This document shows, in pieces, positions 4,730-33,608 of a DNA stretch of 64,000 nt. A program made the position numbers and the translations under genes. How positions within the stretch are numbered: position 1 is the first letter of the stretch; every line of letters begins with the position of its first letter. The notes beneath the pieces were generated by a model. That model had not been told where the DNA came from, ran no database searches, and saw only the letters and a program-made list of their open reading frames with translations. Source of the DNA: Botryllus schlosseri (Eukaryota); the NCBI GenBank assembly GCA_051294905.1, contig CM119372.1, positions 29,080,001 to 29,144,000 on the forward strand, written 5' to 3'.

Positions 4730-5186
4730 GGGGATAACGGTGTTCGGAAAACGGTTGGATTTATGTCACCCATCGCGATAACAATTCCAGGTCGAGTTTT
4801 CCCCCGCATGTTTACTATATTGTGTCTTTATTGGTCAATGTATGTCTCGACATTCAGTTTGAAATCGGAAACCCTGATAAAGTATGTAACCGGATCCGGA
4901 TATCAACTCTGAATCGATAAACCAATGAACAATGTTCAAAGTAAACATGTTACACCCTGTGTTTCCACGAAAAAATACCATCCAGACATACGTCGCGCTT
5001 GTTTGCCCACACCAGTATACGCGTAAATGGAGGTGTGTGACATTGCATGCAATGTGTTGGTATACGAACATCGGGGAGTAAGCCTTCGATCCACAGACAT
5101 TATCATAACCGGTAATTTTGCTGCAGATCGAATGTCATCACACCCGATAACAATACCAATAAGCCACATTGCAATGACTCTGAGTC

Positions 5187-6108: not shown

Positions 6109-9100
6109 GACTCAGAGTCATTGCAATGTGGCTTATTGGTATTGTTATCGGGTGTGATGACATTCGATCTGCAGCAAAATTACCGGTTATGATAATGTCT
6201 GTGGATCGAAGGCTTACTCCCCGATGTTTGTATACCAACACATTGCATGCAATGTCACACACCTCCATTTAAGCGTATACTGGTGTGGGCAAACAAGCGC
6301 GACGTATGTCTGGATGGTATTTTTTCGTGGAAACACAGGGTGTAACATGTTTACTTTGAATATTGTTCATTGGTTTATCGATTCAGAGTTGATATCCGGA
6401 TCCGGTTACATACTTTATCAGGGTTTCCGATTTCAAACTGAATGTCGAGACATACATTGACCAATAAAGACACAATATAGTAAACATGCGGGGGAAAACT
6501 CGACCTGGAATTGTTATCGCGATGGGTGACATAAATCCAACCGTTTTCCGAACACCGTTATCCCCATTCCAACCATCGTCAAGGAGGTGTTTTATTCCGA
6601 CATTTTGACTCTGGAAAATCCAAAGCACGAACCCGGACATCACAGAACTATCGAAGCCTATTGTCCAATTTTCCAAAACACACATTTCAGTGTACAAGAG
6701 CATATTGTATGTGGTTAACCGATGATATTGATGTGATACGACTGATGGGTGGTATACTCTGAAACCGATAGTCCGTGTATATTTCCGTCACTGTTCGTTG
6801 TAATCTATTTCAAACTATCGTCAATACAACAAATACCAAATTGTCAGGTGAGTTTGTCAGATTTCAAAATGGAAATGGTTTTGTTACTCTTGGAAAAGCT
6901 AGATGACCAAGAGAAAATGTATTGTTACACAGCGTAAACGCCAGATCTCCAAAGGAAAATGATATTTTTACTCAGGTAAACGACGACCCGCCAAGTGAAA
7001 ATGGTTTGTTGCTCAGTGAAAATGGTTTGTTGCTCAGGGAAAAAATATATTTCCAAGTGAAAAAGGTTTGTTACCCAGAGAAAAAATATATTTCCAAGTG
7101 AAAAAGGTTTGTTACCCAGAGAAAAAATAAATTTCCAAGTGAAAAAGGTTTGTTACCCTGAGAAAAAGTATATTTCCAAGTGAAAAAGGTGTGTTATCCA
7201 GGGCAAAAATAGATTTCCAAGTGAAAAGGGGTTTGTTATCCAGGGCAAAAATAGATTTCCAAGTGAAAAGGGGTTTGTTACACTGGGTAAACGATAAATC
7301 TCCAAAGGACAATGGTATTTTAGTTAGGTAACGGTGGACCTCCAAGTGAAAATGATAATTTTACACAGGTAAACGTCAGTTGTCCAAACCAGAATGATAT
7401 TTTTACTTGGGTAGGTATCTTGTGTTCAACGCTGGTAGTGTGATTGGTCTTGTTAAATGTAGTTACCGAGTTGTACAATATACTTTTCGTGCGTATACAA
7501 TTATGAAGGGGCGGAAAATGAAATTGCTATTATGATCGTCAGAAGATTGTTGTAGGTTGATTTGATTTGTAGGAGTAGCAATCCTATCATTCGCATATGA
7601 CAAGCAAAATCATTACCGCGAATACATGTAACTGGTTCGCTCGGTCTCGACCAATGCAAAATAGATGATTCGTTTTTTGAAACCGTAGCGAAGACCACGT
7701 GTAAATCGATGTGATAGACTTCTACCCCCCTTACATTCAGTCGTGTCGTGTCCATTTTAATACGGGGCCCACAGGTATGACATGCACACACTAACGCCGT
7801 GAACAGAAATCGATGATTTTGATTAATAAAAATATTTCCTGGCTACATCGGAATGTCTATGTTGTAGAAAGTAAATACTTTTATGAAGTTGTGTGTTTAA
7901 TGAAAGCGATTGGTTACAAGTATGTGTTGGGGAAAGAAAATTTTATTTTTCTGTATGTGACGAAATGAAAATAGATTCGTGGTTTTAATTGAATTGTGAC
8001 TGTGTTGTTTTAATGTACGTTTCAACAGGTAGACTTGACACTGAACAACAATTCGACCCACAAAACATATTCGTTGTATGATTTGTCGCTGGTGTGTAAA
8101 GGGTTAGGAATATTTTGAATGATAATATCTACAGGCTGTTTTGTTGTGAGGGCGATCATGTGATGACTCAGCACTTTTCGTTAGCAAAGTAGATTGAACT
8201 ATGTGAAAGATGTAAGGACCGTGGCTAGAAACATATGTACTTTGTTGTTGGAGTAGCTGATTTACTGCTATGGTGTTGACATAACCCTCTGGAAGTGAGT
8301 ATGCTTTTCTTTCACGAAAGTTTACGTGGCTCCGTTCTAATAAATTTGTGTTAACTAAACTCGGATGGATACTGCAATTGTGCTGGACTTACACATGGTA
8401 TTCGCATACCGTACACATACAAACTTTTGTGTAAACAACTCTCTGATGTTTCTGTTAGTACTAGTTCTGTGTTGAACTATTTGATTATTAAGATACATGA
8501 ACACCCATTCAGACAATAAAGTTCTTGTGATATCGAAACAGTTTGAAAGCACCACCAATCATTGCTTATGTTCGTAGCATGAGCGAATATTTTCATGTGT
8601 CGTGAATATCTTTCGTATACACTTAGTATGAAATGAGATGTGTGGAACAATAATTAGTGTCGTACAAAGTGTTGTGTTGGATTGCCTACTTTTTATCAAT
8701 GTCTTTGTGATGTTAAAAGACGGCTGAGTTTTCATTTACATTAAGCGGAGAAACTCAAGTAATAAATTTTACTCGTTTGAAAATATTGATCAATGGAGTA
8801 ACAGTATCAATATGAGTGGTATATTATTTTTTTTTCGCGATATGCAACCAATCTTCTAAGCATAACTTGTCAAAAATTTATCGTGTCGTAGAAACACCGG
8901 TTGTTACGAATTCGAAAGAAATGTACTTCGATTATCACGATGATGGAAATTAAGATCAATGCAGTATTTCGGAGATGGATGTGTATCGTTTGGTATGTTC
9001 CCCAATCACTAAATGTCGGTTAGTTAAACGATACATTTATAAGTTTACCGAAATCTTGATTTACAAATAACAGCTTGATGATGTAAAGCTCAACCACGCA

Positions 9101-12100
9101 AATGTGTTCATAGCAAAGTATTTGACACAAACAAAATATCGAATGGAGACCGTCCCATTGGTTTCATTTCGAGTGAGTGAAAATTGTTTTCTGTTGGCAA
9201 GGTAGGACACATTTGATAAACTTCGTACACATTGTTTCTTCGTGATGGTAACGACTTTGAGCGGCTTGGTTTCATGTCGGGAATTATTATTTGAGGGTTC
9301 AAGAACGATTTCAATCAATACTAGAAATGAACAACAATGCAAAACACGTTTAGCAAATAACAGTGTAGCGAGTACTTTTTCGATATTACGAGTGTTGGGC
9401 ACTAGACACTTCTAGTTGAATTGGATGCATCTAACAAACATATCACAATTTACTTTTGCAATAATCAAAGTCTTAGAGTGTATAACCTCGCGATATTTTA
9501 CATTTAGCACGCACAATGGGGAGTTACTGAAATGATTAAGAATTGATCGCTAGCTTCGAACGGTACTCGATACTGAAAGTGATATTTTGTCATTCTGTAA
9601 AGTGCATATGTTTCAATTCTCTCTCACAAATTCCGACAATAAATCGTTGGATTCAATAGTAACGATATTGTGATATACTGATTCTACACTTAGTCGTTTC
9701 AATTACCCGTTGGGAATCGGGATAATAAAGCATTTTGTATCGGATGTTCAATGTATGAATACTGGAATTATTACATCTTTAGTGCTGTTTATCGCAAACG
9801 ATAGATTTTAATAATTGTACTGACTGTTGAATGTAATAATACCGATATTGTCGTTGCATCTTTAGTCTTGGTTACTGGAAATATTTTCTGATATCCGCGA
9901 TACGCAGAGTGATTTTTACCAAGGTGGAGTAATTTTCCTATCAAGAACATTTCAGACACACATAGTTTTACAGCTTAATATGTTAATAACATTGGTACTG
10001 AAAAGTTTGTTGCTGTCATAACATTTACCACAACGCCGGGTCTAATTAACGCAAATAATTTAATAATAAAGTAATGATCAACTATTACAAAATCTCATAT
10101 GTCAAATCAATGTGTCAATCCTTATGTTCACGGCATGATAACTTTGAATATAACACCATCGTTCGATTGTAAAAAATGAATTCTCAACTACGTTGGTTGG
10201 ACTTTCAAATCTCGTATACTCAAACATATTATGTTAATCTCAAGTCGCCGACACTGAGAAGTAATTACTTTTGTCTTACAAAATATACCGAGTAGTAATT
10301 AGTTTGTCTTGCAGAATATACCGCGTAATAATTCCTCTATCTTACAGAATAGTAACGACTTTTCAAGTTGAATAAAAAAGATGTGTAGGGATGTGAATAC
10401 AACCAAGCTTGTTATGGATTTTAGGTTTTAGTGATTGTATGGATTCGTGTATGTTTGGCTGTTTTTCATACTGATACTGTTTGAGTTGGTCGGGTAAGTT
10501 ACAAACGGATTTACTTGACAATGTTTTCGTGGTTGACTCTTTGAATATGGTAAGGTGGTGAGATGTCGAGACGTAATACTATTTCCGTACACTCAATTAC
10601 AACAAAACATAACCCGCATTCGAATAAGCCGTAAGCTACAAGTGGATTTAGAACTTGATGCTGTTTTGTGGTTAACTCAAGTCAGTAGTCATGTTTGTGT
10701 TGATTTCGGGAATGATCATGACGAGTTGGTCGGGAAAATTAGGTAATGTGGTAGTAACTATGACCTTACCGAGTTGCTGACATTCAAATATCTTTTACGC
10801 TGTAATATACGGATTTAATTGTGATAAATTATTTCTCAGTTATTGTTCAGACATTCAAATCTCGTATACTCAAAATATAATATGTTCAAGTCAAATCGTA
10901 TATGCACCGATTAGTAAATACTTTGTCTTCAGAATAGTAACGACCTTTACAATCGAATAAAAAAAGACCGATCATACGAGTACAACCAGGATGAATTAAT
11001 TCAAATTTATGAGTTGTAGTGATATAATCAAGTAAGTGAAAACTAGATTTCCCGAGTAGTGATTACTTTGTGTTATAGATTAGTAACGACTTTTACAGTT
11101 GAATAAAAATTATCGGTCATACGAATACCACAAGGATGAATTAATTCAAGTTTGCGAGTTGTAGTGATATAGCCAAGTAAGTGAAAAGTAGATTTTAAAC
11201 ACTTGTTAATGTTGTGAATAATTCTTTTGAGTATGGTAAGATGTTAAAATGTCTCTTTGACAAACGGAAAGCTGGATCGGTAATAGAGTTGTAATGTTAC
11301 ATTACTTGTTTCAAATCAATGTGTGTATAATATCGAAACGGGACTGTGGGGGAAGTTGGTAGTCATGTTTGTCAATCCTATTTCAATGCGCACTACGCCA
11401 AAGTCGAAATAATCGGTTTCGGATTAGGATTTTACAATTATTTCACACCTTTTTGAATAAGCGTCAACTTCACAGAGGATTAGGGTTGGGTCAGAAATAA
11501 GTGAAAATTTGTCGGTATTCGAATCACCGGCTACGCCGGCTCTATGGTAAACTAATTACTAAAGTAACACCATGCGACTGATTCCTAGATTTATCAAACT
11601 ATTTCGCACTGACTGGACTAGCGTAATAATCGATAGTAGCACACGGTTGGACGGGAAACAATTCAGCACACAGGTCATTCGAAATGTAGGCCGCACGCGC
11701 TGCGTAATCCTCACAACAAACCGTGTTCGCAAAACGGACGTATTTAGTGGGTCAGACATATCAAAACGCAAGCGCAAACATCTGTTTTCAAAATCGCACA
11801 ATGCACTGCGGTTTAGTGAATTTCCTGTTTAGTGGTACTCGTGACTATTTACTTGATACATATTCAACACCGTGTGAGAGATTCCTATACCCGAAAGTAC
11901 GATATGCCGATATATCCATAAGAACACATGGCGAGTCACCACCACAGCCTATACGGGAAAGTACGAATCACCGCCGCGTCCATAAGAATAACGATATATC
12001 ATTGTCGTACTCACCGTAAACGTTAGGATTACCTGGATTCGGTCATATTTAATAATTTGCGATATACACATTAACTAAGGACCAATCACGTGACTTTTTA

Positions 12101-12633
12101 CCAACCTGATACATATTCAACACCGTGCGAGAGATGCATATACCCGAAAGTACGATTCACGACCGCACCCATAAGACACAATAGCCGCATGCGACCGCAC
12201 CCATAAGACGCAATAGCCGCTCGCCACCCCCGCCATAAGACGCAATAGCCGCATGCGACCGCACCCATAAGAACACATGGCGAGTCACCACATATCCCGT
12301 AAGAATACACGGCAGGTGAATCACCGTCACCACCTATAGTAAAAAAAGTACGAGTCACCAACACGAGTTTTCAATACGAGTCACCAACACGAGTTTTCAA
12401 TACGAGTCACCGACGCAGCCTATACCCGAAAGTACGAGTCACCAACACGAGTTTTCAATACGAGTCATCGCCGCAGCCTATACCCGAAAGTACGAATCAC
12501 CAACACACCCATAAGAACACATTACGAATCACGAGCGAGAGGGGGGTCTGAAAGTACGAGTCACCAGCGGAAGGGGGGTCTGAAAGTACGAGTCACCAAC
12601 ACGAGTTTTCAATACGAGTACGGGTAAAGTCAT

Positions 12634-15644: not shown

Positions 15645-16369
15645 GTGCTGACCCAAAACCGAAATTAGCTTCCTACATTATGAACCATTTATTGCCAATG
15701 AGTTGAAGGTAAAGGTGTCATGATAGTCTCAATAAGCGTACTTTCAAACCCCTGATACAAAAATTTCAAAATGTGCTAGAGGTTGTCAAGTCAGGATCCA
15801 GCTATTCCTAATTTGCGTCTTAGTTGTGGCACGCTATAGATTACTTTTCCTTGCACACCTAGTAATTTTTTCTCGTACAATACATATTCCTCTTTCAAAT
15901 AAGAATCCACAGCATAGATGTAAACAAATGTATTTTTAAAATGTAAAATCATTACATTCCCAACACGTAACACCATTGGCTGCTGTCTTGTTAGCGAGCA
16001 GAAATACAAATACAACGCTGCTGATAAATGCGGTCTGCGGTTGAAACTAAACTAATATTGCAAACTTTTTATTTTGGTTTGATGGAAATTCTCTCGTTTT
16101 TGTAAGCTGAAATCAGTGTAGTAAGGATTAACTGTGTTTGTCCGTTTTTGGAGAAGCGGTTCTTGCGGGCTCCGATTGATTTGTTGGAAAATTACAACAA
16201 AAAGGAAGTAGTTGTAAGCGATCCGTAAGTAGTATAGTAGATCGCTCGCGAACGGCCATTGGTTCTTATGGGCGGGGTGGTGACTCGTATTGAAAACCGG
16301 GGGTGGTGACTCGTACTTTCAGACCCCCCTTGTGGTGGTGAGTCGTAATGGGTTCTTATGGACGCGGTC

Positions 16370-16632
16370 GTGATTCGTACTTTCGGGTATAGGCTGTGGC
16401 GGTGACTCGTATTGAAAACTCGGGGTCGTGATTCGTACTTTTGGGTATAGGCTGTGGCGGTGACTCGTATTGAAAACTCGTGGTCGTGATTCGTACTTTT
16501 AGGTATAGGCTGTGGCGGTGACTCGTATTGAAAACTCGGGGTCGTGATTCGTACTTTTGGGTATAGGCTGGGGCGGTGACTCGTATTGAAAACTCGGGTC
16601 GTGATTCGTACTTTTGGGTATAGGCCGCGGTC
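16370..16632 (+). repeat. 58-bp subterminal tandem repeat of element 2 (4 full units left; 2 units in the right arm at ~30022-30136)
   Basis: Unit GTGATTCGTACTTTTGGGTATAGGCTGTGGCGGTGACTCGTATTGAAAACTCGGGGTC. Confidence 0.9.
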
Positions 16633-17040
16633 GTGATTCGCCGTGAAAAGTCGAGGGTGTGACTCGCCTTTTTTGCTATAGGTGGTGGCGGTGATTCGTC
16701 TGTCGTGTATTCTTACAGGGTCTCTACTGATTCACCATGTGTTCTTATGGGCGCGGCGGTGATTCGTACTTTCGAGTATAGGCATCTCTCGCGTGGTGTT
16801 GAATATGTACGAGTCACCAACAATAACCGCACAAACGGAAACGTGGCTTGCAATAGGATTACGCAGTGCGTGCGACCTATATTTCGAATGACCTGCGCGC
16901 TGAATTATTTCCCGTCCAGTCGTGTGCTACTATCGATTATTACACTAATCCATTCAGTGCGAAATAGTTTGCTAAATCTAGGAATCAGTCGCATGGTGTT
17001 ACTTTAGTAATTAGTTTACCACAGAGCCGGCGTAGACGGT

Positions 17041-17322
17041 TGGTTGGTTGGTTTGTGGTATTCATGGTGTTTGTCGACTACTATGGTCATTTACACCAGG
17101 CCGATATTCTTTTTATTTTCCGTAACTGCCGACTTATAGCACGGCCCACCTCTAGGCTTTTGTAAGACACCGCTGACGCGGATGATGTGGCGAGGAGGAG
17201 CCTAGGTAAACCTCCAACACTTAGGTATCGGAATTCGGAAGTCGACCTCGGTCGGACTCGAACCCGCACCCATTGGTGTTGCAGCCGCGGATTATACCAC
17301 TGCGCTATCTCGCCACTATAAA
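17041..17322 (-). mobile_element. tRNA-derived SINE (family A) in the left arm of element 2
   Basis: Mirror image of 29300-29581. A-box TAGCGCAGTGG, B-box GGTTCGAGTCC, (CAAC)n tail, TSD ACCGTCTACGC. Confidence 0.85.
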
Positions 17323-17324
17323 GC

Positions 17325-17640
17325 GTAGACGGTGATTCGAATATCAGCAATAACCACGCTCACAAACTAACAGTTCGAAAAGGTGTGAAATAGTTTGCTA
17401 AATCTGGCACATGGTAATGTTTTGGTAATTAGTTTACCACAGAGCCGGCGTAGACGGTGATTCGAATATCAGCAATAACCACGCTCACAAACTAACAGTT
17501 CGAAAAGGTGTGAAATAGTTTGCTAAATCTGGCACATGGTAATGTTTTGGTAATTAGTTTGTCCCAGAGCCGGCGTAGACGGCGATTCGAATACCAACAA
17601 TAACCACGCTCACAAACTAACACTTCAAATAGGTGTGAAA
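17325..17640 (+). repeat. 125-bp tandem repeat (~2.5 units) in element 2 arm (mirror ~28980-29297)
   Basis: GTAGACGG(T/C)GATTCGAATA... starts at 17325, 17450 and 17575. Confidence 0.85.
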
Positions 17641-20600
17641 TATATAACAAACCCCACGATCACTCACAAGATAACACCTAAGACATAGCCATTTTTCGCG
17701 TCTTACCATTACTTACATCCCAATCGCTACAGTTTAATATGTCGATGGTTTTTACTATCAAGTAATAAGTAATGAATAACCGAACCGGTGCAGACTGTGA
17801 TTCGAAAACCAACAATTTGTCACTTGCACGCGATCGCTATATGTTTTGACACTTCGCACCGTTTTCACATCTATAGAATCAATACCAACTATAATTCTAT
17901 AAGAATCAAGAATCACAAGTATGTGCATTATACAGTTATAGTCTTTATTAACTTGAAATCAACCTCTTAACAAAAACACGCATCTTATCACTCGTCAACT
18001 CTATCATGAAAATCATCGACTCCTTATCATCAAAAATGTTATAGTGCGGCGTCGGAATCCATTCGTGGGGTGTACTAAAGTTAAATCCAGATAATCCAAA
18101 ATGAAATATTTGGACTTTGACATAGTCTGAATTGAAATATATTGACAAACATGACTACCAACTTTGATCCAGTCACATTTCAAGATCGTACTTTGAAACA
18201 ATCCTTGAAACTTACAACTCTATTCACGACTGAGTTTTCCGTTTATCAAATAGAGTTTCAGTAAATACTATCGCGATATTTTAATGTATAGAATCAATCA
18301 ATGAAATAGCACCTGTTGTAAATATTTCTAACTTGACAACCACTTGTGCATACCGCGATCGACTTGTGACGCGATGAGTTAAATCGGAATATTTCAATCT
18401 ATTTGTCGAAACCTTGAACAAACTAGCAGGTTATTTTTTGTTGTAATCGAGTGAACGGAAATAGTATTACGTCTCAACATTTTTTGTTGTAATCGAGTGA
18501 ATGGAAATAGTATTACGTCTCAACATTTTAACATCTTCCCATACACAAAAGAGTAAAATACAAAAAAGCCTTGTCAAGTCAATCCGTTTGTAACTTACCC
18601 AACCAAAGCAAAAAGTATCCTTATGAAAAGTAGACAAGACTACACGAGTAATCACCACAATCCAAAATCCATAGCAAGTTCGGCTGTAGTCATATACCGC
18701 CAAATCATCTTCTTATTTGTTCAACTGTAAAAGTCGTTACTATTCTGTAAGATAAAGTAATTACTACTCGGTATATTTTATAAACCAAAGTAAATACTAC
18801 TCGGTGTGCGGTTTGAGATTACCATATTACATTTTAGTATACGAGATTTGAATATCTGACCAATGTAGTTGAGAATTCATTTCTTACAATCGAACGCAGG
18901 CGTTATCTTGAAAATTTTCACGATGTAAACATATGAATTGACACATTGATTCGACATATGTAATAGTTGATCATGACTTGATTATTAAATTATTTGCGTT
19001 AATTAGACCCCGCGTTGTGGTAAATGTTATGACAACAACAAACTTTTCAGTACCAACGTTATTAACATATTAAGCTGTAAAACTATGTGTGTCTGAAATG
19101 TTCTTGATAGGAAAATTACTCCACCTTGGTAAAATTCACTCTGCGTATCGCGGATATCAGAAAATATTTCCAGTAACCAAGACTAAAGATGAAACGACAA
19201 TATCGGTATTATTACATTCAACAATCAGTACAATTATTAAAATCTATCGTTGTGATAAACAGCACTAAAGATGTAATAATTCCAGTATTCATACATTGAA
19301 CATCCGATACAAAAATGCTTTATTATCCCGATTCCCAACGGGTAATTGAAACGACTAAGTGTAGAATCAGTATATCACAATATCGTTACTATTGAATCCA
19401 ACGATTTATTGTCGGAATTTGTGACAGAGAATTGAAACATATGCACTTTACAGAGTATGAAAATATCACTTTAAGTATCGAGTACCGTTCGAAGCTAGCG
19501 ATCAGTTCTTAATCATTTCAGTAACTCCCCATTGTGCGCGCTAAATGTAAAATATCGCGAGGTTATACACTCTAAGACTTTGATTATTGTAAAAGTAAAT
19601 TGTGATATGTTTGTTAGATGCATCCAATTCAACTAGAAGTGTCTAGTGCCCAACACCCGTAATATCAAAAAAGTACTTGCTACACTGTTATTTGCTAAAC
19701 GTGTTTTGCATTGTTGTTCATTTCTAGTATTGATTGTTCTCGAACCCTCAAATAATAATTCCCGACATGAAACCAAGCCGCTGAAAGTCGTTACCATCAC
19801 GAAGAAACAATGTGTACGATGTTTGTCAAATGTGTCCTACCTGGCCAACAGAAAACAATTTTCACTAGCTTGGTAATGAAACCGAAGTCTCCATTCGATA
19901 TTTTGTTTGTGTCAAATACTTTACAATGAACACATTTGCGTGGTTGAGCTTTACATCATCAAGCTGTTATTTGTAAATCAAGATTTCGGTAAACTTGTAA
20001 ATGTATCGTTTAACTAACCGACATTTAGTGATTGGGGAACACACCAAACGATACACATCCATCTCCATAATACTGCATTGATCTTAATTTCCATCATCGT
20101 GATAATAGAAGTACTTTTGTTTTGAATTCATAACAATCGGCTTTTCTATGACATGATAAATTAGAAGAATTAGAAGATTGGTTGCATATCACTAAAAATA
20201 ATATACCACACATATTATTACTGTTACTCCATTTATCGGTTTTTTTTCCGTTGTCGATTTTCGAACGAGTAAAATTTATTACTTGAGTTGCTCTGCTTAC
20301 TATATTTAAATGTAAACTCGCCCGTCTTTCAACAACAAACAATGTTAAAAAAGTATGCAATCAAACACAACAAGTTTTACGATACTAATTATTATCCCAC
20401 ATAACCCATTTCTTACCGAAGACATATGAAATATATTCATGGTACACAAAAATATTCGCTCATGCTACAAACCTGTACAATGATTGGTGGTGCTTTCAAA
20501 CTGTTTCGATACCTCAAGAACTTTATTGTCTGAATGGTTGTTCATGTATCGTAATAATCAAGTAGTTCAACACAGAACTAGTATTAACAGAAACACCAGA

Positions 20601-21619
20601 GTTGTTGACACAAAAGTTTGTATGTGTACAGTATGCGAATACCATGTGTAAGTCCAGCACAATTGTGGTATCCATACGAGTTTAGTTAACACAATTTACG
20701 ACACCGAGGTCGCCTCATCTTTCGTAAGATAACAAACCAAGGCTTCAGGATATGTCCATGTCATAACAATAAATCAGCTACTCCAACAACAGAGTACAAT
20801 AGTACATATGTTTTCTAGTACGGTGCTTACATCTTACACACAAATCGACCTACTTTGCTAACGAAAAGTGCTGAGTCATCACATGGTTGTCCTCACAACA
20901 ATACAACTAAAACATACTATCATACAAAATGGCCGTTATAGTCACCAATGGTAAATCGTACAAGTAACAAGTCTCGAGAATCCAGTTATTCAAAAAACGT
21001 GAAAGTATTTCTACACCAAGTCGTTATGTTGACGAAGACGTATATTGTAATATCATGATCGATTTGTATTCGTTGACCGCAAAATGTCACTACTCTAAAT
21101 AATTATTTTTCACTCAAACACCAAAACCTACTTGTCGCCATTCGTTTTCATCAAGCACGAGTTCAAGAAACTTACTTACTACGACATGAAATGTTATTTT
21201 ATGTTGTGTAAATAGGTAATAATTAATTCAAGTAACACTATATCAACATCATCGAGCTGTGCGAATAGATTTACATGTGGTCTTGTGGTTTTAATCGAAG
21301 TACACAGTACGGTCTAATGTAGAGTCATCTCTATTGTACAGCAACTCGGTAATCGAAATGCATTAAAATTTAAACAGCGATCTTGTTTCATCACGCGAAA
21401 AATATGTTCACTATCGCTATACTCTGCACAGGACGTGTAAATCCTTTTCACACTCGTAATAGTATACTATTGGCTACCGGCGACAACATTTAACAACACC
21501 AACGACACTAAACATACGATACCTAACCAAGTAAAATTTCCATTTTCACCTGGGGGTCAGCCGTTACCTGAGTAAAAATACCATTATTCTTTGGAGATTT
21601 ATCGTTTAATCAGAGTAAC

Positions 21620-21975
21620 AAAACATTTTCACTTGGGGGTCCATCGTTTCCCAAAGTAACAAGCTCCCTTTCCTTTGGGAATCTATTTTTTCCGTGGGTA
21701 ACAAATCTTTTTCACTTGGAAATATCTTTTTTCCTCGGGTAACAAACCTTATTCGCTTGGAAACATATTTTTTTCCCTGGGTAGCAAACCTTTTTCACTT
21801 GAAAATATATTTTTTCCTCGGGTAACAAACCTTTTTCACTTAGAAATATATTTTTTTCTTCGGGTAACAACCCATTTTCACTTGGAAATATATTTTTATC
21901 CCGAGCAACAAACCTTTTTCACTTGTGAATATATTTTTTTTTCCCTGAACAACAAACCATTTTCACTTGGCGGTC
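21620..21975 (+). repeat. ~41-bp minisatellite in element 2 left arm (mirror ~24650-25000)
   Basis: Same unit family as 3580-3870, more diverged. Confidence 0.85.
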
Positions 21976-22834
21976 CGTCGTTTACTGAGTAAAAATATCA
22001 TTTTCCTTTGGAGATCTGGCGTTTACCCAGTGTAACAACACATTTTCTCTTGGTCATCTAGCTTTTCCTAGAGTAACAAAACCATTTTCATTTTGAAATC
22101 TGACAAACACACCTGACAATTTGATATTTTTTGTATATTGTTACAACGGATAGCGACAAAATATACACCAACAACAACTTCAGTACATTTGTGTAATTGC
22201 ATATTCACTTGTGCTGATGCAACCCATCAAAATCATCGGGTACCCACATGTAATGCGCTGTTGTACATCGACGTTTATGTTTTTGGAAAATTGGACAATA
22301 GGCTTCGATAGTTCTGTGATGTCCGGGCTCGTGCTTTGGATTTTCCAGAGTCAAAATGTCTGAATAAAACACCTCCTTGACGATGGTTGGTATGTGGATA
22401 ACGGTGGTCGGAAAACGGTTGGATTTATGTCACCCATCGCGATAACAATTCCAGGTCGAGTTTTCCCCCGCGTGTTTACTATATTGTGTCTTTATTGGTC
22501 ATGTATGTCTCGACATTCAGTTTGAAATCGGAAACCCTGATAAAGTATGTAACCGGATCCGGATATCAACTCTGAATCGATAAACCAATGAACAATATTC
22601 AAAGTAAACATGTTACACTCAGTGTTTCCACGAAAAAATACCATCCAGACATACGTCGCGCTTGTTTGCCCACATCAGTATACGCGTAAATGGAGGTGTG
22701 TGACATTGCATGCAATGTGTTGGTATACAAACATCGATCCACAGACATTATCATAGCCGGTAGTTTTGATGCAGATCGAATGTCATCACACCCGATAACA
22801 ATACCAATAAGACACATTGCAATGACTCTGAGTC

Positions 22835-23789
22835 AATCTGAAGTATGACATACAGACACACAAACATGGAACCGTAACATGGGTTATTCGCACGACGGTG
22901 AAAGTGAGCTATACAGCATATACCAATAGAGCGTTCACAGTCGAATATGCGAACCACGCACAATCACATACCCTGGTTTTTGTTGGATATGTACGAAACC
23001 AATAAATCGATACATTTCTGTTCCTTCTACGTCAATAATACAAGCGTCATTCCAATGCATCGCTCGAATGTAAGGTTCGTCGGGTGTAAAATCCATGTCA
23101 AATAACACCAAAGTGTGCCTTCCGTGTTTTATTATTTCCACCGTCGAATCTTGTCTGTGTCGTAATACTATGGTGCAGGGACTTGAAAAACTGTACTTTG
23201 TAAAACGGATTGACATGTTCTTCGGTATGACCAACTGAATCGACGTCAATAGCCTTGTGGTGATGACAGTTTCAAAATGCTCCGATATGACGAGACCAAC
23301 GCCGATCTCGCGTGGTGACGACCGTTTTTTGTAATGTTACCGGACGAACTAGACAAACCCTTACGATGGTGTGTTTTATGATTGCGTGTGAAATCACGAG
23401 GTAGTGTTCTATTGTGGTGTACGATTGCAGTTTTCATTCCACTGAAACACACCTTATTGGATCACAATATCAGTCCGACATTTGTAGAATCACTGTTCAC
23501 GATATTTATCTGGAGTCGTTATGTAGGAGTAGCGACATCCATTCATCGTGACTGAAAGACTGATCGCAATCATTTCGAGCACCCGCATTTCGAAAGTTCA
23601 CCTTGGTCAAACGCTGTAGTCTCAGAAGAGAACTTCGGTGTCGACAACACGATGGATATTGACCGATGTATCCAATTGGTCTGGGAGGTCCGTCTGCAGA
23701 TAGGGTCATGACTATCTTGTAATGTTACAACACGATAACACCATCGAATAAATCAGTGAACGGTGTCGAAATATCGATGTAATAGCGAA
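22835..23789 (-). other. 955-bp spacer (loop) of element 2
   Basis: Bounded by GACTCTGAGTC (ends 22834) and GACTCAGAGTC (starts 23790). Reverse-complement homologue of 5187-6108. Confidence 0.9.
22935..23216 (-). CDS. Hypothetical 93-aa protein in the element 2 spacer (MSIRFTKYSFSSPCTIVLRHRQ...)
   Basis: Ungapped homologue of 5728-6003; both frames are open. Confidence 0.4.
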   Translation of the reverse strand: MSIRFTKYSFSSPCTIVLRHRQDSTVEIIKHGRHTLVLFDMDFTPDEPYIRAMHWNDACIIDVEGTEMYRFIGFVHIQQKPGYVIVRGSHIRL

Positions 23790-26700
23790 GACTCAGAGTC
23801 ATTGCAATGTGTCTTATTGGTATTGTTATCGGGTGTGATGACATTCGATCTGCATCAAAACTACCGGCTATGATAATGTCTGTGGTCGATGTTTGTATAC
23901 CAACACATTGCATGCAATGTCACACACCTCCATTTACGCGTATACTGATGTGGGCAAACAAGCGCGACGTATGTCTGGATGGTATTTTTTCGTGGAAACA
24001 CAGAGTGTAACATGTTTACTTTGAATATTGTTCATTGGTTTATCGATTCAGAGTTGATATCCGGATCCGGTTACATACTTTATCAGGGTTTCCGATTTCA
24101 AACTGAATGTCGAGACATACATGACCAATAAAGACACAATATAGTAAACACGCGGGGGAAAACTCGACCTGGAATTGTTATCGCGATGGGTGACATAAAT
24201 CCAACCGTTTTCCGACCACCGTTATCCACATACCAACCATCGTCAAGGAGGTGTTTTATTCAGACATTTTGACTCTGGAAAATCCAAAGCACGAGCCCGG
24301 ACATCACAGAACTATCGAAGCCTATTGTCCAATTTTCCAAAAACATAAACGTCGATGTACAACAGCGCATTACATGTGGGTACCCGATGATTTTGATGGG
24401 TTGCATCAGCACAAGTGAATATGCAATTACACAAATGTACTGGAGTTGTTGTTGGTGTATATTTTGTCGCTATCCGTTGTAACAATATACAAAAAATATC
24501 AAATTGTCAGGTGTGTTTGTCAGATTTCAAAATGAAAATGGTTTTGTTACTCTAGGAAAAGCTAGATGACCAAGAGAAAATGTGTTGTTACACTGGGTAA
24601 ACGCCAGATCTCCAAAGGAAAATGATATTTTTACTCAGTAAACGACGGACCGCCAAGTGAAAATGGTTTGTTGTTCAGGGAAAAAAAATATATTCACAAG
24701 TGAAAAAGGTTTGTTGCTCGGGATAAAAATATATTTCCAAGTGAAAATGGGTTGTTACCCGAAGAAAAAAATATATTTCTAAGTGAAAAAGGTTTGTTAC
24801 CCGAGGAAAAAATATATTTTCAAGTGAAAAAGGTTTGCTACCCAGGGAAAAAAATATGTTTCCAAGCGAATAAGGTTTGTTACCCGAGGAAAAAAGATAT
24901 TTCCAAGTGAAAAAGATTTGTTACCCACGGAAAAAATAGATTCCCAAAGGAAAGGGAGCTTGTTACTTTGGGAAACGATGGACCCCCAAGTAAAAATGTT
25001 TTGTTACTCTGATTAAACGATAAATCTCCAAAGAATAATGGTATTTTTACTCAGGTAACGGCTGACCCCCAGGTGAAAATGGAAATTTTACTTGGTTAGG
25101 TATCGTATGTTTAGTGTCGTTGGTGTTGTTAAATGTTGTCGCCGGTAGCCAATAGTATACTATTACGAGTGTGAAAAGGATTTACACGTCCTCTGCAGAG
25201 TATAGCGATAGTGAACATATTTTTCGCGTGATGAAACAAGATCGCTGTTTAAATTTTAATGCATTTCGATTACCGAGTTGCTGTACAATAGAGATGACTC
25301 TACATTAGACCGTACTGTGTACTTCGATTAAAACCACAAGACCACATGTAAATCTATTCGCACAGCTCGATGATGTTGATATAGTGTTACTTGAATTAAT
25401 TATTACCTATTTACACAACATAAAATAACAATTCATGTCGTAGTAAGTAAGTTTCTTGAACTCGTGCTTGATGAAAACGAATGGCGACAAGTAGGTTTTG
25501 GTGTTTGAGAGAAAAATAATTATTTAGAGTAGTGACATTTTGCGGTCAACGAATACAAATCGATCATGATATTACAATATACGTCTTCGTCAACATAACG
25601 ACTTGGTGTAGAAATACTTTCACGTTTTTTGAATAACTGGATTCTCGAGACTTGTTACTTGTACGATTTACCATTGGTGACTATAACGGCCATTTTGTAT
25701 GATAGTATGTTTTAGTTGTATTGTTGTGAGGACAACCATGTGATGACTCAGCACTTTTCGTTAGCAAAGTAGGTCGATTTGTGTGTAAGATGTAAGCACC
25801 GTACTAGAAAACATATGTACTATTGTACTCTGTTGTTGGAGTAGCTGATTTATTGTTATGACATGGACATATCCTGAAGCCTTGGTTTGTTATCTTACGA
25901 AAGATGAGGCGACCTCGGTGTCGTAAATTGTGTTAACTAAACTCGTATGGATACCACAATTGTGCTGGACTTACACATGGTATTCGCATACTGTACACAT
26001 ACAAACTTTTGTGTCAACAACTCTGGTGTTTCTGTTAATACTAGTTCTGTGTTGAACTACTTGATTATTACGATACATGAACAACCATTCAGACAATAAA
26101 GTTCTTGAGGTATCGAAACAGTTTGAAAGCACCACCAATCATTGTACAGGTTTGTAGCATGAGCGAATATTTTTGTGTACCATGAATATATTTCATATGT
26201 CTTCGGTAAGAAATGGGTTATGTGGGATAATAATTAGTATCGTAAAACTTGTTGTGTTTGATTGCATACTTTTTTAACATTGTTTGTTGTTGAAAGACGG
26301 GCGAGTTTACATTTAAATATAGTAAGCAGAGCAACTCAAGTAATAAATTTTACTCGTTCGAAAATCGACAACGGAAAAAAAACCGATGAATGGAGTAACA
26401 GTAATAATATGTGTGGTATATTATTTTTAGTGATATGCAACCAATCTTCTAATTCTTCTAATTTATCATGTCATAGAAAAGCCGATTGTTATGAATTCAA
26501 AACAAAAGTACTTCTATTATCACGATGATGGAAATTAAGATCAATGCAGTATTATGGAGATGGATGTGTATCGTTTGGTGTGTTCCCCAATCACTAAATG
26601 TCGGTTAGTTAAACGATACATTTACAAGTTTACCGAAATCTTGATTTACAAATAACAGCTTGATGATGTAAAGCTCAACCACGCAAATGTGTTCATTGTA

Positions 26701-29299
26701 AAGTACTTGACACAAACAAAATATCGAATGGAGACTTCGGTTTCATTACCAAGCTAGTGAAAATTGTTTTCTGTTGGCCAGGTAGGACACATTTGACAAA
26801 CATCGTACACATTGTTTCTTCGTGATGGTAACGACTTTCAGCGGCTTGGTTTCATGTCGGGAATTATTATTTGAGGGTTCGAGAACAATCAATACTAGAA
26901 ATGAACAACAATGCAAAACACGTTTAGCAAATAACAGTGTAGCAAGTACTTTTTTGATATTACGAGTGTTGGGCACTAGACACTTCTAGTTGAATTGGAT
27001 GCATCTAACAAACATATCACAATTTACTTTTGCAATAATCAAAGTCTTAGAGTGTATAACCTCGCGATATTTTACATTTAGCGCGCACAATGGGGAGTTA
27101 CTGAAATGATTAAGAATTGATCGCTAGCTTCGAACGGTACTCGATACTTAAAGTGATATTTTCATACTCTGTAAAGTGCATATGTTTCAATTCTCTGTCA
27201 CAAATTCCGACAATAAATCGTTGGATTCAATAGTAACGATATTGTGATATACTGATTCTACACTTAGTCGTTTCAATTACCCGTTGGGAATCGGGATAAT
27301 AAAGCATTTTTGTATCGGATGTTCAATGTATGAATACTGGAATTATTACATCTTTAGTGCTGTTTATCACAACGATAGATTTTAATAATTGTACTGATTG
27401 TTGAATGTAATAATACCGATATTGTCGTTTCATCTTTAGTCTTGGTTACTGGAAATATTTTCTGATATCCGCGATACGCAGAGTGAATTTTACCAAGGTG
27501 GAGTAATTTTCCTATCAAGAACATTTCAGACACACATAGTTTTACAGCTTAATATGTTAATAACGTTGGTACTGAAAAGTTTGTTGTTGTCATAACATTT
27601 ACCACAACGCGGGGTCTAATTAACGCAAATAATTTAATAATCAAGTCATGATCAACTATTACATATGTCGAATCAATGTGTCAATTCATATGTTTACATC
27701 GTGAAAATTTTCAAGATAACGCCTGCGTTCGATTGTAAGAAATGAATTCTCAACTACATTGGTCAGATATTCAAATCTCGTATACTAAAATGTAATATGG
27801 TAATCTCAAACCGCACACCGAGTAGTATTTACTTTGGTTTATAAAATATACCGAGTAGTAATTACTTTATCTTACAGAATAGTAACGACTTTTACAGTTG
27901 AACAAATAAGAAGATGATTTGGCGGTATATGACTACAGCCGAACTTGCTATGGATTTTGGATTGTGGTGATTACTCGTGTAGTCTTGTCTACTTTTCATA
28001 AGGATACTTTTTGCTTTGGTTGGGTAAGTTACAAACGGATTGACTTGACAAGGCTTTTTTGTATTTTACTCTTTTGTGTATGGGAAGATGTTAAAATGTT
28101 GAGACGTAATACTATTTCCATTCACTCGATTACAACAAAAAATGTTGAGACGTAATACTATTTCCGTTCACTCGATTACAACAAAAAATAACCTGCTAGT
28201 TTGTTCAAGGTTTCGACAAATAGATTGAAATATTCCGATTTAACTCATCGCGTCACAAGTCGATCGCGGTATGCACAAGTGGTTGTCAAGTTAGAAATAT
28301 TTACAACAGGTGCTATTTCATTGATTGATTCTATACATTAAAATATCGCGATAGTATTTACTGAAACTCTATTTGATAAACGGAAAACTCAGTCGTGAAT
28401 AGAGTTGTAAGTTTCAAGGATTGTTTCAAAGTACGATCTTGAAATGTGACTGGATCAAAGTTGGTAGTCATGTTTGTCAATATATTTCAATTCAGACTAT
28501 GTCAAAGTCCAAATATTTCATTTTGGATTATCTGGATTTAACTTTAGTACACCCCACGAATGGATTCCGACGCCGCACTATAACATTTTTGATGATAAGG
28601 AGTCGATGATTTTCATGATAGAGTTGACGAGTGATAAGATGCGTGTTTTTGTTAAGAGGTTGATTTCAAGTTAATAAAGACTATAACTGTAAAATGCACA
28701 TACTTGTGATTCTTGATTCTTATAGAATTATAGTTGGTATTGATTCTATAGATGTGAAAACGGTGCGAAGTGTCAAAACATATAGCGATCGCGTGCAAGT
28801 GACAAATTGTTGGTTTTCGAATCACAGTCTGCACCGGTTCGGTTATTCATTACTTATTACTTGATAGTAAAAACCATCGACATATTAAACTGTAGCGATT
28901 GGGATGTAAGTAATGGTAAGACGCGAAAAATGGCTATGTCTTAGGTGTTATCTTGTGAGTGATCGTGGGGTTTGTTATATATTTCACACCTATTTGAAGT
29001 GTTAGTTTGTGAGCGTGGTTATTGTTGGTATTCGAATCGCCGTCTACGCCGGCTCTGGGACAAACTAATTACCAAAACATTACCATGTGCCAGATTTAGC
29101 AAACTATTTCACACCTTTTCGAACTGTTAGTTTGTGAGCGTGGTTATTGCTGATATTCGAATCACCGTCTACGCCGGCTCTGTGGTAAACTAATTACCAA
29201 AACATTACCATGTGCCAGATTTAGCAAACTATTTCACACCTTTTCGAACTGTTAGTTTGTGAGCGTGGTTATTGCTGATATTCGAATCACCGTCTACGC

Positions 29300-29581
29300 T
29301 TTATAGTGGCGAGATAGCGCAGTGGTATAATCCGCGGCTGCAACACCAATGGGTGCGGGTTCGAGTCCGACCGAGGTCGACTTCCGAATTCCGATACCTA
29401 AGTGTTGGAGGTTTACCTAGGCTCCTCCTCGCCACATCATCCGCGTCAGCGGTGTCTTACAAAAGCCTAGAGGTGGGCCGTGCTATAAGTCGGCAGTTAC
29501 GGAAAATAAAAAGAATATCGGCCTGGTGTAAATGACCATAGTAGTCGACAAACACCATGAATACCACAAACCAACCAATCA
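29300..29581 (+). mobile_element. tRNA-derived SINE (family A) in the right arm of element 2
   Basis: Pol III A/B boxes; TSD ACCGTCTACGC (29289-29299, 29582-29592); an independent copy of the family lies at 59894-60157. Confidence 0.85.
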
Positions 29582-30899
29582 ACCGTCTACGCCGGCTCTG
29601 TGGTAAACTAATTACTAAAGTAACACCATGCGACTGATTCCTAGATTTAGCAAACTATTTCGCACTGAATGGATTAGTGTAATAATCGATAGTAGCACAC
29701 GACTGGACGGGAAATAATTCAGCGCGCAGGTCATTCGAAATATAGGTCGCACGCACTGCGTAATCCTATTGCAAGCCACGTTTCCGTTTGTGCGGTTATT
29801 GTTGGTGACTCGTACATATTCAACACCACGCGAGAGATGCCTATACTCGAAAGTACGAATCACCGCCGCGCCCATAAGAACACATGGTGAATCAGTAGAG
29901 ACCCTGTAAGAATACACGACAGACGAATCACCGCCACCACCTATAGCAAAAAAGGCGAGTCACACCCTCGACTTTTCACGGCGAATCACGACCGCGGCCT
30001 ATACCCAAAAGTACGAATCACGACCCGAGTTTTCAATACGAGTCACCGCCCCAGCCTATACCCAAAAGTACGAATCACGACCCCGAGTTTTCAATACGAG
30101 TCACCGCCACAGCCTATACCTAAAAGTACGAATCACGACCGCGTCCATAAGAACCCATTACGACTCACCACCACAAGGGGGGTCTGAAAGTACGAGTCAC
30201 CACCCCCGGTTTTCAATACGAGTCACCACCCCGCCCATAAGAACCAATGGCCGTTCGCGAGCGATCTACTATACTACTTCCGTAAACTAGGAAAAACGAG
30301 TTTGCGGGTCAATTGGATGCACCTAGCACCTAGTGTAAGAGTGAGAGTGCCCAATGAACGGCGCAGCAATAGGCAGTACGCCTGTGGTTTGCCCCGCTGC
30401 TCACTTACTCCTGAGCTCCGGCATCATTATTCAAGATGGCAAACTCCGTCACAATGCAAAATTCGAGGATGAGTTAGGGTGTTCCAGAGCCACTAGCAGA
30501 ATAAAATATATGTTTTGTAATCAGTACCGCGGTAGCTTTAGATTGATGTCAATTTTATCAATTTTCGAGCTCGGAAAACCAGCCTAAATAGTATCGTACA
30601 TTTACTTTGATCAAATGGAGAGAATGACTTTACTCCCTCACAGTGATTTGCTTGTGTCTACGCCACCGCAGGGCACTGTGGTATAGGACACTACGATGAT
30701 ATGATTTGAGCGTGGATCAATGTGAAGTGCACATGAAAATGTTTGACACGCATGCTTCTCATATATTGAAATCTGCCAAACGGAAGAGAAAAGACTACAA
30801 ACCTCTGGTCTCGATTAATAACACAATCAGCTTAAAATGACGTCACAGGCATGATTTGGATTTTCATCAAATTTGGTGATACTATTGTTGGTATACAAC

Positions 30900-33488: not shown

Positions 33489-33608
33489 CTCATCAGCATT
33501 TCTAATCGAAAAACATAGTGATCTACAGAAGATCCTGTGAGCAACTATTCTCCCTCACGCAACCTATTCATAGTAAGCGCATTATTTTTCATTTTTTCAT
33601 TCATTATT

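What the first reader, a model, noticed from the sequence alone, without database searches (positions are those of the whole stretch)
17030..29592. One SINE insertion present at mirror positions in both arms: evidence of arm-to-arm copying
Seen: a tRNA-SINE with TSD ACCGTCTACGC sits at 17041-17322 (-) and 29300-29581 (+), at the same site, near-identical and with the same extra TTTATA. The homologous site in element 1 (~11524-11545, ACCGGCTACGCCGGCTC) is empty. Two independent insertions at one base are implausible. Inference: a chromosomal copy acquired the SINE, was remobilised, and one arm was re-templated from the other, as in panhandle-mediated ITR correction in adenovirus and the 'racket' intermediate proposed for Polintons. 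The family would then cycle between integrated and replicating states and carry host SINEs with it.
Basis: partly seen in the sequence, partly recalled or inferred. Interest (0 to 1): 0.8.

Follow-up and report, generated by a model that had tools for sequence, protein, structure and literature searches.

The report
One SINE copied between palindrome arms
A short mobile element (SINE) inserted once into a 14-kb mirror-image, gene-less Maverick-type transposon and now sits at the same spot in both halves, so one half was copied onto the other, likely by gene conversion in place; this is a neat, datable example of how this very abundant family keeps its two halves alike.

Summary
Observation confirmed. 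The same SINE insertion is in both arms of a 14,051-bp palindromic element, E2 (16228-30278). Both copies have the same 11-bp target duplication and the same odd 6-nt 5' extension, at mirror positions. The neighbouring element E1 has the site empty.

E2 is a gene-less satellite of Maverick/Polinton elements. It has AGTAGT ends, a 6-bp target duplication, 6.6-kb arms and a 955-bp loop. Gene-carrying Mavericks with the same ends live in this genome.

In 38 palindromes examined:
- The two arms differ by 0.35% or less in 32, and by 0.49-1.8% in the other 6.
- Copies differ from each other by 0.2-14%.
- In 16 four-arm comparisons, 3,881 variable sites are fixed in both arms of one element. Only 1 site is shared arm-wise between elements.

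Arm-to-arm copying is therefore real and family-wide, and the doubled SINE is one visible event of it.

That mechanism was remobilisation plus panhandle or 'racket' re-templating. I favour chromosomal arm-to-arm gene conversion (about 0.5) over helper-driven hairpin re-templating (about 0.3).

The prediction '0 or 2 arms' fails in one copy, where a SINE sits in one arm only. The prediction 'arms cluster by element' holds.

One haploid assembly cannot tell where the copying happens.

The parts
16228..30278 (.). E2: 14,051-bp palindromic, gene-less Maverick-ended element
   Evidence: Inverted arms. Ends are AGTAGT...ACTACT. No ORF of 134 aa or more, and no Pfam match in 9 of 9 ORFs of 75 aa or more.
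16222..16227 (.). 6-bp target site duplication TCCGTA, left copy
30279..30284 (.). 6-bp target site duplication TCCGTA, right copy
16228..22834 (+). Left arm, with 58-bp, 125-bp and 41-bp tandem sub-repeats
   Evidence: Aligned to the right arm it shows 13 mismatches, one 116-nt indel (two 58-bp units, 16366-16481) and two 1-nt indels.
22835..23789 (.). Unique 955-bp loop (spacer)
   Evidence: At least 1,007 first-look candidates in the genome, and the nearest other copy is 95% identical. Holds a 133-aa ORF at 22938-23336 (-) with no Pfam match.
23790..30278 (-). Right arm
17041..17322 (-). SINE copy in the left arm, including the extra TTTATA (17317-17322 on the + strand as TATAAA)
17030..17040 (.). 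SINE target duplication GCGTAGACGGT (tail side, left arm); second copy at 17323-17333
29300..29581 (+). SINE copy in the right arm, beginning with TTTATA
29289..29299 (.). SINE target duplication ACCGTCTACGC (head side, right arm); second copy at 29582-29592
1..12619 (.). E1: a second element of the family, cut by the window start. Its arms are 1.4% apart.
   Evidence: Its 65 mismatches are spread evenly.
11526..11536 (.). Empty homologous SINE target in E1 (ACCGGCTACGC)
4304..4728 (.). MITE in the left arm of E1 only (terminal repeat AGAGATGAGC, 9-bp duplication GGGGATAAC)

Best explanation
One SINE inserted once into one arm of a 14-kb palindromic, gene-less Maverick-ended element and was then copied to the mirror site of the other arm, most likely by recombinational arm-to-arm gene conversion of the integrated element in the chromosome.

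Shown:
- It was a single insertion event.
- The arms of every family member evolve in concert.
- The family has Maverick ends and Maverick helpers in the same genome.

Inferred:
- The copying is homologous repair. A break or gap in the SINE-free arm would be repaired from the SINE-bearing arm 12 kb away in inverted orientation, with synthesis running through the 293-nt heterology.
- This happened in place, after integration.

The same process would keep most copies at 0.35% arm divergence or less. It would work less well within about 1 kb of either end of the homology. It would leave very recent insertions in one arm only until a tract covers or erases them.
For: 1. Single event. Both copies share the same 11-bp duplication and the same non-canonical TTTATA, at mirror positions. 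E1 has the site empty.

2. Family-wide concerted evolution.
- 32 of 38 elements have arms 0.35% apart or less; the other 6 are 0.49-1.8% apart.
- The nearest other element is 0.2-5% away over the same 2.4 kb.
- Arms pair by element in 17 of 18.
- In 16 quartets, 3,881 sites are fixed in both arms of one element and 1 is shared arm-wise.

3. Signs of tract-wise recombination rather than one all-or-none copy.
- With tandem arrays masked, mismatch density is U-shaped along the arms: 2.35 per kb in the outer 1 kb and inner 2 kb against 1.04 per kb in the middle (p 1e-8, 25 elements).
- The outermost 250 nt are the worst, at 5.0 per kb.
- This is the edge effect expected when a conversion tract needs homology on both sides.
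- Several elements have kb-long mismatch-free stretches at different places.

4. Nothing points to a move after the SINE arrived. No other copy in the genome has this insertion. E2's nearest relative is 1.06% away over its best 2.4 kb, and the nearest other copy of its loop is 95% identical. The SINE copy itself is 100% identical to other copies.

5. In the helpers, transposition does not fully reset the terminal repeats. Seven of 9 gene-complete copies have all nine reading frames open, yet their repeats are 0.13-2.3% apart.

6. Precedent. Large palindromes held above 99% arm identity by arm-to-arm gene conversion are described in PMC8600007 and PMC8981503. Maintained long inverted repeats in a nematode are described in PMC1803023. 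I saw only the search listings and the starts of these abstracts.
Against: 1. The two most diverged copies look as if a clock started once for the whole arm and was never reset in part. E1 has 65 mismatches with variance/mean 0.69 and a largest gap of 269 nt. C6_17.27 is even except for one bin inside an array. A steady in situ process at the rate needed for the other copies should have left clean tracts there.

2. Arm divergence varies widely between copies: 0 of 6,574 nt up to 1.8%, chi-square p 3e-10, gamma shape about 2.3. It also goes with the number of one-arm insertions: 3 of 6 diverged copies against 3 of 32 others, Fisher p 0.04. This is what 'identical at birth, then ageing' predicts.

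3. A pre-planned test for copy-specific tracts in the unique part of the arms was not significant (p 0.10).

4. The family has protein-primed Maverick ends and active-looking helpers, so a single-stranded hairpin stage is plausible.

5. The terminal repeats of the helpers also pair by element in 10 of 11, although they are only 0.6-1.3 kb long and 14 kb apart.

6. No data from a second haplotype or individual could be used.
Confidence: 0.5

Rival explanations
1. The copying would happen while the element is mobilised by a helper Maverick. A displaced single strand would snap back into a 6.6-kb hairpin ('racket' or panhandle). Mismatch and loop repair, or extension of a recessed 3' end, would then make the arms alike before the double-stranded copy is integrated. 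E2 would be the daughter of a copy elsewhere that had the SINE in one arm.
For: - The ends are those of Mavericks. (AGT)2...(ACT)2 plus a perfect 6-bp duplication occurs in 25 of 38 elements, and the motif is described in passages of PMC8097293.
- A gene-carrying copy shares E2's first 19 nt and has a protein-primed polymerase and an integrase.
- At least 40 full-length polymerase genes are in the genome.
- The racket model is in print, as summarised in a passage of PMC4196379.
- The spread of arm divergence, its even distribution in the oldest copies and its link with one-arm insertions all look like ages since a reset.
- Helper terminal repeats pair by element in 10 of 11 and are cleanest at the very ends: 2.3 per kb in the first 300 nt against 15 per kb deeper.
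- Loops and arms have discordant relationships between copies, as if copies recombine while replicating.
Against: - No donor or sister copy with this SINE exists in the assembly.
- Copies with perfect arms have no near-identical relative. For C17_2.39 the nearest is 95% over 2.9 kb, or 99% over 2.2 kb only. For C9_14.25 the nearest is 98%. Absent parents could be explained by insertion polymorphism.
- In the satellites the outermost 250 nt are the least alike, the opposite of repair that starts at the ends.
- Helper copies with all frames open have repeats up to 2.3% apart, so a cycle does not reset them fully.
- Plain panhandle replication copies both arms faithfully and does not by itself make them alike (my own reasoning).
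Confidence: 0.3
2. Copy-back birth. At each replication the second arm would be newly synthesised from the first. The nascent strand would turn back on itself after the loop, as in snap-back defective viral genomes. The arms would then be exact copies at birth, and a SINE in the template arm would be doubled.
For: - Some copies have perfect arms over 6.1-6.6 kb: 0 mismatches in 6,574 nt and 2 in 6,134 nt.
- E1 has even divergence along its arms.
- Two copies are much cleaner in the outer part than in the inner part. In C6_11.08 there are 4 mismatches in the outer 2.5 kb against 28 in the remaining inner 3.75 kb or so. In an old copy near C2:29.45 Mb there are 21 in 2,626 against 113 in 3,709.
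Against: - Other copies are cleaner in the inner or middle part: C1_17.71 and C16_18.48, C3_14.06.
- The pooled profile is U-shaped, not rising steadily inwards.
- This is a sub-form of the mobilisation model and shares its lack of direct evidence.
Confidence: 0.1
3. Assembly artefact. The SINE is really in one arm only, and the assembler or polisher wrote it into both.
For: The arms are nearly identical. The public runs I could lay are short-read contigs that cannot tell the arms apart.
Against: - The assembly keeps the arms distinct: 13 mismatches, one of them inside the SINE tail, and a 116-nt indel.
- The same assembly resolves one-arm insertions in other copies.
- 25 of 38 palindromes are bounded by perfect 6-bp duplications, so the palindromes themselves are real.
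Confidence: 0.03
4. Two independent SINE insertions at the same base in the two arms.
For: The target lies in a repeated 125-bp unit, so similar target sequences recur.
Against: Both copies have the same 11-bp duplication, the same orientation relative to the arm and the same non-canonical TTTATA. That extension is seen in none of the 27 other copies examined. The two copies differ at 1 base in 282 nt.
Confidence: 0.01

Closest known systems
Autonomous Maverick/Polinton elements, vertebrate-type end motif 5'-(AGT)2//(ACT)2-3' (Barreat and Katzourakis 2021, PMC8097293, passages read)
   Same: Perfect 6-bp target duplications, (AGT)2 ends and terminal inverted repeats. The total size of 14 kb lies within the 12.7-24.6 kb reported for intact elements. 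One gene-carrying copy in this genome shares E2's first 19 nt.
   Different: E2 has no polymerase, integrase or capsid gene. Its inverted repeats are 6.6 kb, 94% of the element, against the 46-1,447 bp reported. By the definition in the abstract of PMC5499653 (search listing only), which requires a polymerase and an integrase, it is not itself a Polinton. It is a dependent satellite.
Large sex-chromosome palindromes kept alike by arm-to-arm gene conversion (PMC8600007, PMC8981503, PMC8327919; listings and abstract starts)
   Same: Arms are more than 99% identical around a unique spacer, and they evolve in concert. Changes arising in one arm end up in both.
   Different: Those palindromes are single-copy host structures, tens to hundreds of kb long, that carry genes. 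Here there is a mobile family of about a thousand or more 14-kb copies. In situ conversion has not been demonstrated for them.
Adenovirus panhandle repair of inverted terminal repeats (recalled; one search returned no paper that I read on this)
   Same: A protein-primed linear replicon in which one end can serve as template for the other.
   Different: That repair restores some 100 bp at the very end. Here the doubled SINE lies 813 nt inside a 6.6-kb arm, and the outermost 250 nt are the least alike part of the arms.
Foldback-type transposons with long, internally repetitive inverted repeats (Drosophila Foldback and Galileo; abstract of PMC3573991)
   Same: Very long inverted repeats built partly of tandem sub-repeats, and little or no coding capacity.
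   Different: Galileo belongs to the P superfamily (abstract); its 7-bp duplication is my recollection. Here the duplication is 6 bp and the ends are Maverick ends. A term search of that paper found no mention of gene conversion or homogenisation.
Butterfly Polintons with about 2-kb gene-bearing inverted repeats and transposons as cargo (bioRxiv 10.1101/2025.02.07.637071, passages read)
   Same: Long inverted repeats duplicate whatever lies in them, and host transposons ride inside Polinton-type elements.
   Different: Those elements keep their core genes. No case is described there of one dated insertion being doubled between the arms.

Membership tests
Maverick/Polinton | 6-bp target site duplication | tested here: met
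   E2 has TCCGTA on both sides. 25 of 38 elements have a perfect 6-bp duplication next to AGTAG ends. Of the other 13, most had ends outside the fetched stretch, were truncated or had gaps.
Maverick/Polinton | Conserved end motif 5'-(AGT)2 ... (ACT)2-3' (5'-AG ends; short terminal tandem repeat) | tested here: met
   The ends are AGTAGT.... The motif is stated in PMC8097293, and the 1-3-bp terminal repeat in PMC4196379.
Maverick/Polinton | Terminal inverted repeats of about 0.05-1.4 kb | tested here: not met
   Inverted repeats are present but are 6.6 kb long. The gene-carrying copies here have 0.6-1.3 kb.
Maverick/Polinton | Encodes a protein-primed family B polymerase and a retroviral-type integrase | tested here: not met
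   No ORF of 134 aa or more, and no Pfam match in 9 of 9 ORFs of 75 aa or more in one arm plus the loop. Both genes are present in a 15.8-kb copy with the same ends. E2 is therefore a non-autonomous dependant, not a member by the gene definition.
Palindromes maintained by in situ arm-to-arm gene conversion | Arms more than 99% identical and evolving in concert (arms of one copy are each other's closest relatives) | tested here: met
Palindromes maintained by in situ arm-to-arm gene conversion | Conversion shown at a fixed locus, by comparing orthologous or allelic copies | not testable with these tools
   The assembly holds no second haplotype: the flank has one full match only. The public runs are short-read contigs.
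tRNA-derived SINE | Internal Pol III A and B boxes | tested here: met
   AGTGG...GGTTCGAGTCC is present in both copies. The pattern gives 4 matches in the window against 0 expected from shuffles, 3 of them in the two SINE copies. The box consensus is recalled.
tRNA-derived SINE | Head recognisable as a tRNA | tested here: not met
   ARAGORN finds 0 genes. Rfam finds 0 matches at the gathering threshold and 0 at E up to 1.
tRNA-derived SINE | High copy number, variable target duplications, no coding capacity | tested here: met
   At least 4,826 and at least 4,142 first-look candidates. Duplications of 11 bp and 15 bp.

The most novel reading that the evidence does not exclude
The two arms are re-made from each other in a single-stranded hairpin ('racket') intermediate produced by the helper Maverick's protein-primed polymerase. 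The doubled SINE would then be the first sequence-level footprint of that long-proposed intermediate. These palindromic satellites would be vehicles that double host SINEs and carry them to new sites.
Probability: 0.35. Interest if true: 0.8.

Novelty: new variant of a known kind. Interest (0 to 1): 0.5.

Why it matters
How Maverick/Polinton elements copy themselves is still known only from models. A family of about a thousand or more 14-kb palindromic satellites, whose halves evolve in lockstep, is a natural experiment on that question.

A nested insertion with its own target duplication is an unambiguous single-event marker that one half was templated from the other. Scoring such markers as 0, 1 or 2 arms across individuals would make the question directly testable: is the copying in the chromosome or in a replication intermediate?

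There is also a practical point. Arm or terminal-repeat identity cannot be used as an insertion clock for these elements until that is settled.

Tried and rejected
- Reads. The public runs found are short-read contigs. Laid on E2 and on the left SINE junction (one search did not complete and was repeated), they cover the flanks up to the element ends. They cannot tell the arms apart, and no piece bridges a junction by 31 nt on both sides. So they gave no verdict on assembly, zygosity or SINE state. One contig with flank variants runs only 24 nt into the element; I do not count it.

- Genome searches with Pfam PF03175 and PF00770 found nothing. PF03175 was a false negative: a copy found later carries that domain.

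- Nested clocks.
  - The LTR retrotransposon that sits in one arm of C5_11.18 has identical 438-nt LTRs.
  - The one-arm SINE of C5_12.93 has copies 99-100% identical elsewhere.
  - The other one-arm insertions are short-repeat MITE-like elements.
  - None of these gives an age older than its host's arms.

- Shared arm-specific sites between related copies: 1 in 16 quartets. This is uninformative, because even the closest pairs are further apart than their own arms.

- Copy-specific tracts in the unique arm part: p 0.10. A post-hoc Fisher test (p 0.0003) was cherry-picked and I do not use it.

- A 647-nt segment shared by E1 and C2_34.85 in both arms is a subfamily trait with at least 1,123 candidates, not a nested transposon.

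- Second haplotype in the assembly: none.

- Loop ORF. E1 and E2 each have a 133-aa ORF with visibly similar peptides. My ungapped and frame-naive counts are unreliable, so I draw nothing from them.

- Literature. Term searches listed no paper describing palindromic Maverick satellites or a nested insertion doubled between their arms. These were listings only, and the library is partial.


Full report
WHAT IS THERE

The window (G000:C2:29080001-29144000) holds a nearly perfect 14,051-bp palindrome, E2 (16228-30278).
- The left arm is 16228-22834, the unique loop 22835-23789 and the right arm 23790-30278.
- Properly aligned, the arms differ by 13 mismatches in about 6,490 nt (0.2%), one 116-nt indel (two units of a 58-bp tandem array) and two 1-nt indels. 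A fourteenth listed difference lies in the target duplication.
- A second element, E1 (1 to about 12619), is cut by the window start. A partial third arm lies at about 48962-50425.
- E1 and E2 are about 86% alike, while E1's own arms are 98.4-98.6% alike.

A 282-nt SINE lies at 17041-17322 (-) and at 29300-29581 (+). Each copy is flanked by the same 11-bp duplication, GCGTAGACGGT on the + strand of the left arm.

Both copies carry TTTATA between the duplication and the SINE head. I located 29 SINE heads in loci L001-L030. Only these two have that junction; the other 27 all differ upstream.

In the whole genome only these two places match SINE plus flanks over the full 481 nt. The other 38 full SINE matches cover the SINE alone at 96-100% identity, and 4 short matches cover only the flanking 125-bp repeat. 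The first look gave 4,826 candidates, of which 40 were scored.

The two copies differ at one base in the tail. E1 reads straight through the homologous site, 11526-11536.

The SINE has Pol III A and B boxes, but ARAGORN and Rfam do not see a tRNA.

One insertion event that is now present twice means that one arm was copied from the other.

WHAT THE HOST ELEMENT IS

E2 has no ORF of 134 aa or more. None of its 9 ORFs of 75 aa or more in one arm plus the loop matches Pfam.

Its ends read AGTAGT...ACTACT and it is flanked by TCCGTA on both sides. Of the 38 family members I examined, 25 have AGTAG ends next to a perfect 6-bp duplication. Most of the other 13 had ends outside the fetched stretch, were truncated or had assembly gaps.

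This is the end signature reported for Mavericks: 5'-(AGT)2//(ACT)2-3' with 6-bp duplications, repeats of 46-1,447 bp and sizes of 12.7-24.6 kb (passages of PMC8097293). Passages of PMC6839031 and PMC4196379 give 6 bp plus 5'-AG ends as the Maverick/Polinton combination.

- L104+L105 is a 15.8-kb element whose first 19 nt equal those of E2.
- It has the duplication CACGGG and 884-nt inverted repeats.
- It has an 844-aa ORF with the family-B polymerase domain PF03175 (E 1.5e-7).
- It has a 344-aa ORF with an integrase core and a chromodomain.

All 40 scored genome matches to that polymerase gene are full length at 94-100% identity, out of 139 candidates. My own earlier Pfam-family searches of the genome had missed them.

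E2 is thus a gene-less, palindromic satellite of resident Mavericks.

The family is large. First-look candidate counts are 3,164-3,856 for arm pieces and 1,007 for E2's type of loop, with only 40 scored each time, and hits come in inverted pairs.

ARMS EVOLVE IN CONCERT IN THE WHOLE FAMILY

I fetched 36 further elements. Twenty-six were picked as best matches to arm pieces, and ten were picked down the ranking of loop matches.
- Arm divergence is 0.35% or less in 32 of 38 elements, including 0 mismatches in 6,574 nt in one. It is 0.49-1.8% in the other 6.
- Over the same 2.4 kb, the nearest other element is 0.2-5% away.
- Left and right arms pair by element in 17 of 18.
- In 16 four-arm comparisons of related elements, 3,881 variable sites are fixed in both arms of one element. 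One site is shared arm-wise between elements.

The first prediction (0 or 2 arms) is not. Element C5_12.93 has a SINE of the same family, with a 15-bp duplication, in its left arm only. Yet its arms are 99.9% alike.

Seven more insertions of 250 nt or more sit in one arm only.
- They include a MITE in E1, a 6.3-kb LTR retrotransposon and several MITE-like elements.
- E2's SINE is the only nested insertion with a recognised duplication of its own that I found in both arms.

WHERE AND HOW THE COPYING HAPPENS

I tried to separate copying in the chromosome from copying during mobilisation, and could not do so decisively.

For tract-wise recombination:
- With tandem arrays masked, mismatch density along the arms is U-shaped: 2.35 per kb at the edges against 1.04 per kb in the middle (p 1e-8, 25 elements).
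- The outermost 250 nt are the worst, at 5.0 per kb.
- This is an edge effect expected of conversion tracts, and the opposite of repair that starts at the ends.
- Several copies have kb-long clean stretches at different places.
- A pre-planned test in the unique part of the arms gave only p 0.10.

For 'identical at birth, then ageing':
- E1's 65 mismatches are evenly spread (variance/mean 0.69).
- Divergence varies widely between copies (p 3e-10).
- Divergence goes with one-arm insertions (Fisher p 0.04).

The helpers give mixed signals.
- Their 0.6-1.3-kb terminal repeats also pair by element in 10 of 11.
- Those repeats are cleanest at the very ends: 7 mismatches in 3,000 nt against 73 in 4,848 nt deeper.
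- Yet 7 of 9 gene-complete copies keep all nine reading frames open while their repeats are 0.13-2.3% apart.
- By my rough estimate, which is an inference, about 1% of neutral decay over 9.4 kb of coding sequence should have broken several frames. Those repeats were therefore probably unequal when the copies were inserted. A transposition cycle does not reset them fully.

Near-identical parents are missing for satellites with perfect arms. They are equally missing for the helpers, whose nearest relative is 98%. This argues neither way.

Loops and arms have discordant relationships between copies, so copies exchange segments.

VERDICT

Arm-to-arm copying is established, and is a general property of this family.

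The steps 'remobilised' and 'panhandle/racket re-templating' are not shown. No SINE-bearing donor or sister copy exists.

I give chromosomal arm-to-arm gene conversion about 0.5. It needs no unobserved stage, fits the edge effect and fits the incomplete reset seen in the helpers.

I give helper-driven hairpin homogenisation about 0.3, and its copy-back variant about 0.1.

Assembly artefact and double insertion are unlikely.

LIMITS

- This is one haploid assembly with no second haplotype.
- The public runs are short-read contigs that cannot resolve the arms.
- Copy numbers are first-look candidate counts.
- The 26 elements of the first sample were chosen by similarity to E2 and so lean young.
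- The SINE scan covered 28 of the 38 elements.
- Of the papers on palindrome conversion I saw only listings and abstract starts. Adenovirus end repair is recalled.

Noticed in passing
window 22938-23336 (-) and 5602-6000 (+): The loops of E2 and E1 each hold a 133-aa ORF, and the two peptides are visibly similar. Neither matches Pfam. Earlier notes of this scan call this a small conserved gene. My quick counts were unreliable, so I leave it open.
   Followed up: partly
window 33033-36168 (+) and 44127-46930 (+): Two non-LTR retrotransposon remnants. One has a reverse transcriptase (PF00078, E 1e-30). The other has an endonuclease plus reverse transcriptase in a GC-rich 596-aa ORF. They are possible partners of the SINE.
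   Followed up: partly
window 48962-50425: A partial third arm of the same family, 75-92% like E1 and E2, with no visible partner arm in the window.
   Followed up: no
window 59910-59946 (+): Another A-box/B-box-like match, probably a different or truncated SINE.
   Followed up: no
loci L043+L044 (C2:33.05 Mb): A palindrome of the family whose two arms stop at the same internal position. It has no AGTAGT ends and no target duplication. Its interior carries C2H2 zinc-finger fragments. The symmetric outer truncation is unexplained.
   Followed up: partly
family-wide (for example C3_3.24 against C7_7.53, and C15_14.24 against C5_18.48): Loops and arms tell different family histories. In one pair the arms are 99.2% alike and the loops 91.2%. 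In another the arms are 93.1% alike and the loops 99.7%. This points to exchange of segments between copies.
   Followed up: partly
loci L057-L059 (C11:18.26 Mb) and L049+L050 (C15:14.24 Mb): Structures with three or four arms next to assembly gaps (runs of N). They may be rearranged copies or mis-assemblies.
   Followed up: no
L076+L077 (C3:31.49 Mb): An element with proper AGTAGT ends on both sides but unlike 6-bp flanks. This would be expected after recombination between two copies.
   Followed up: no
window 14900-15650: The flank between E1 and E2 is itself an old dispersed repeat, 71-78% identical to at least 40 other places.
   Followed up: no
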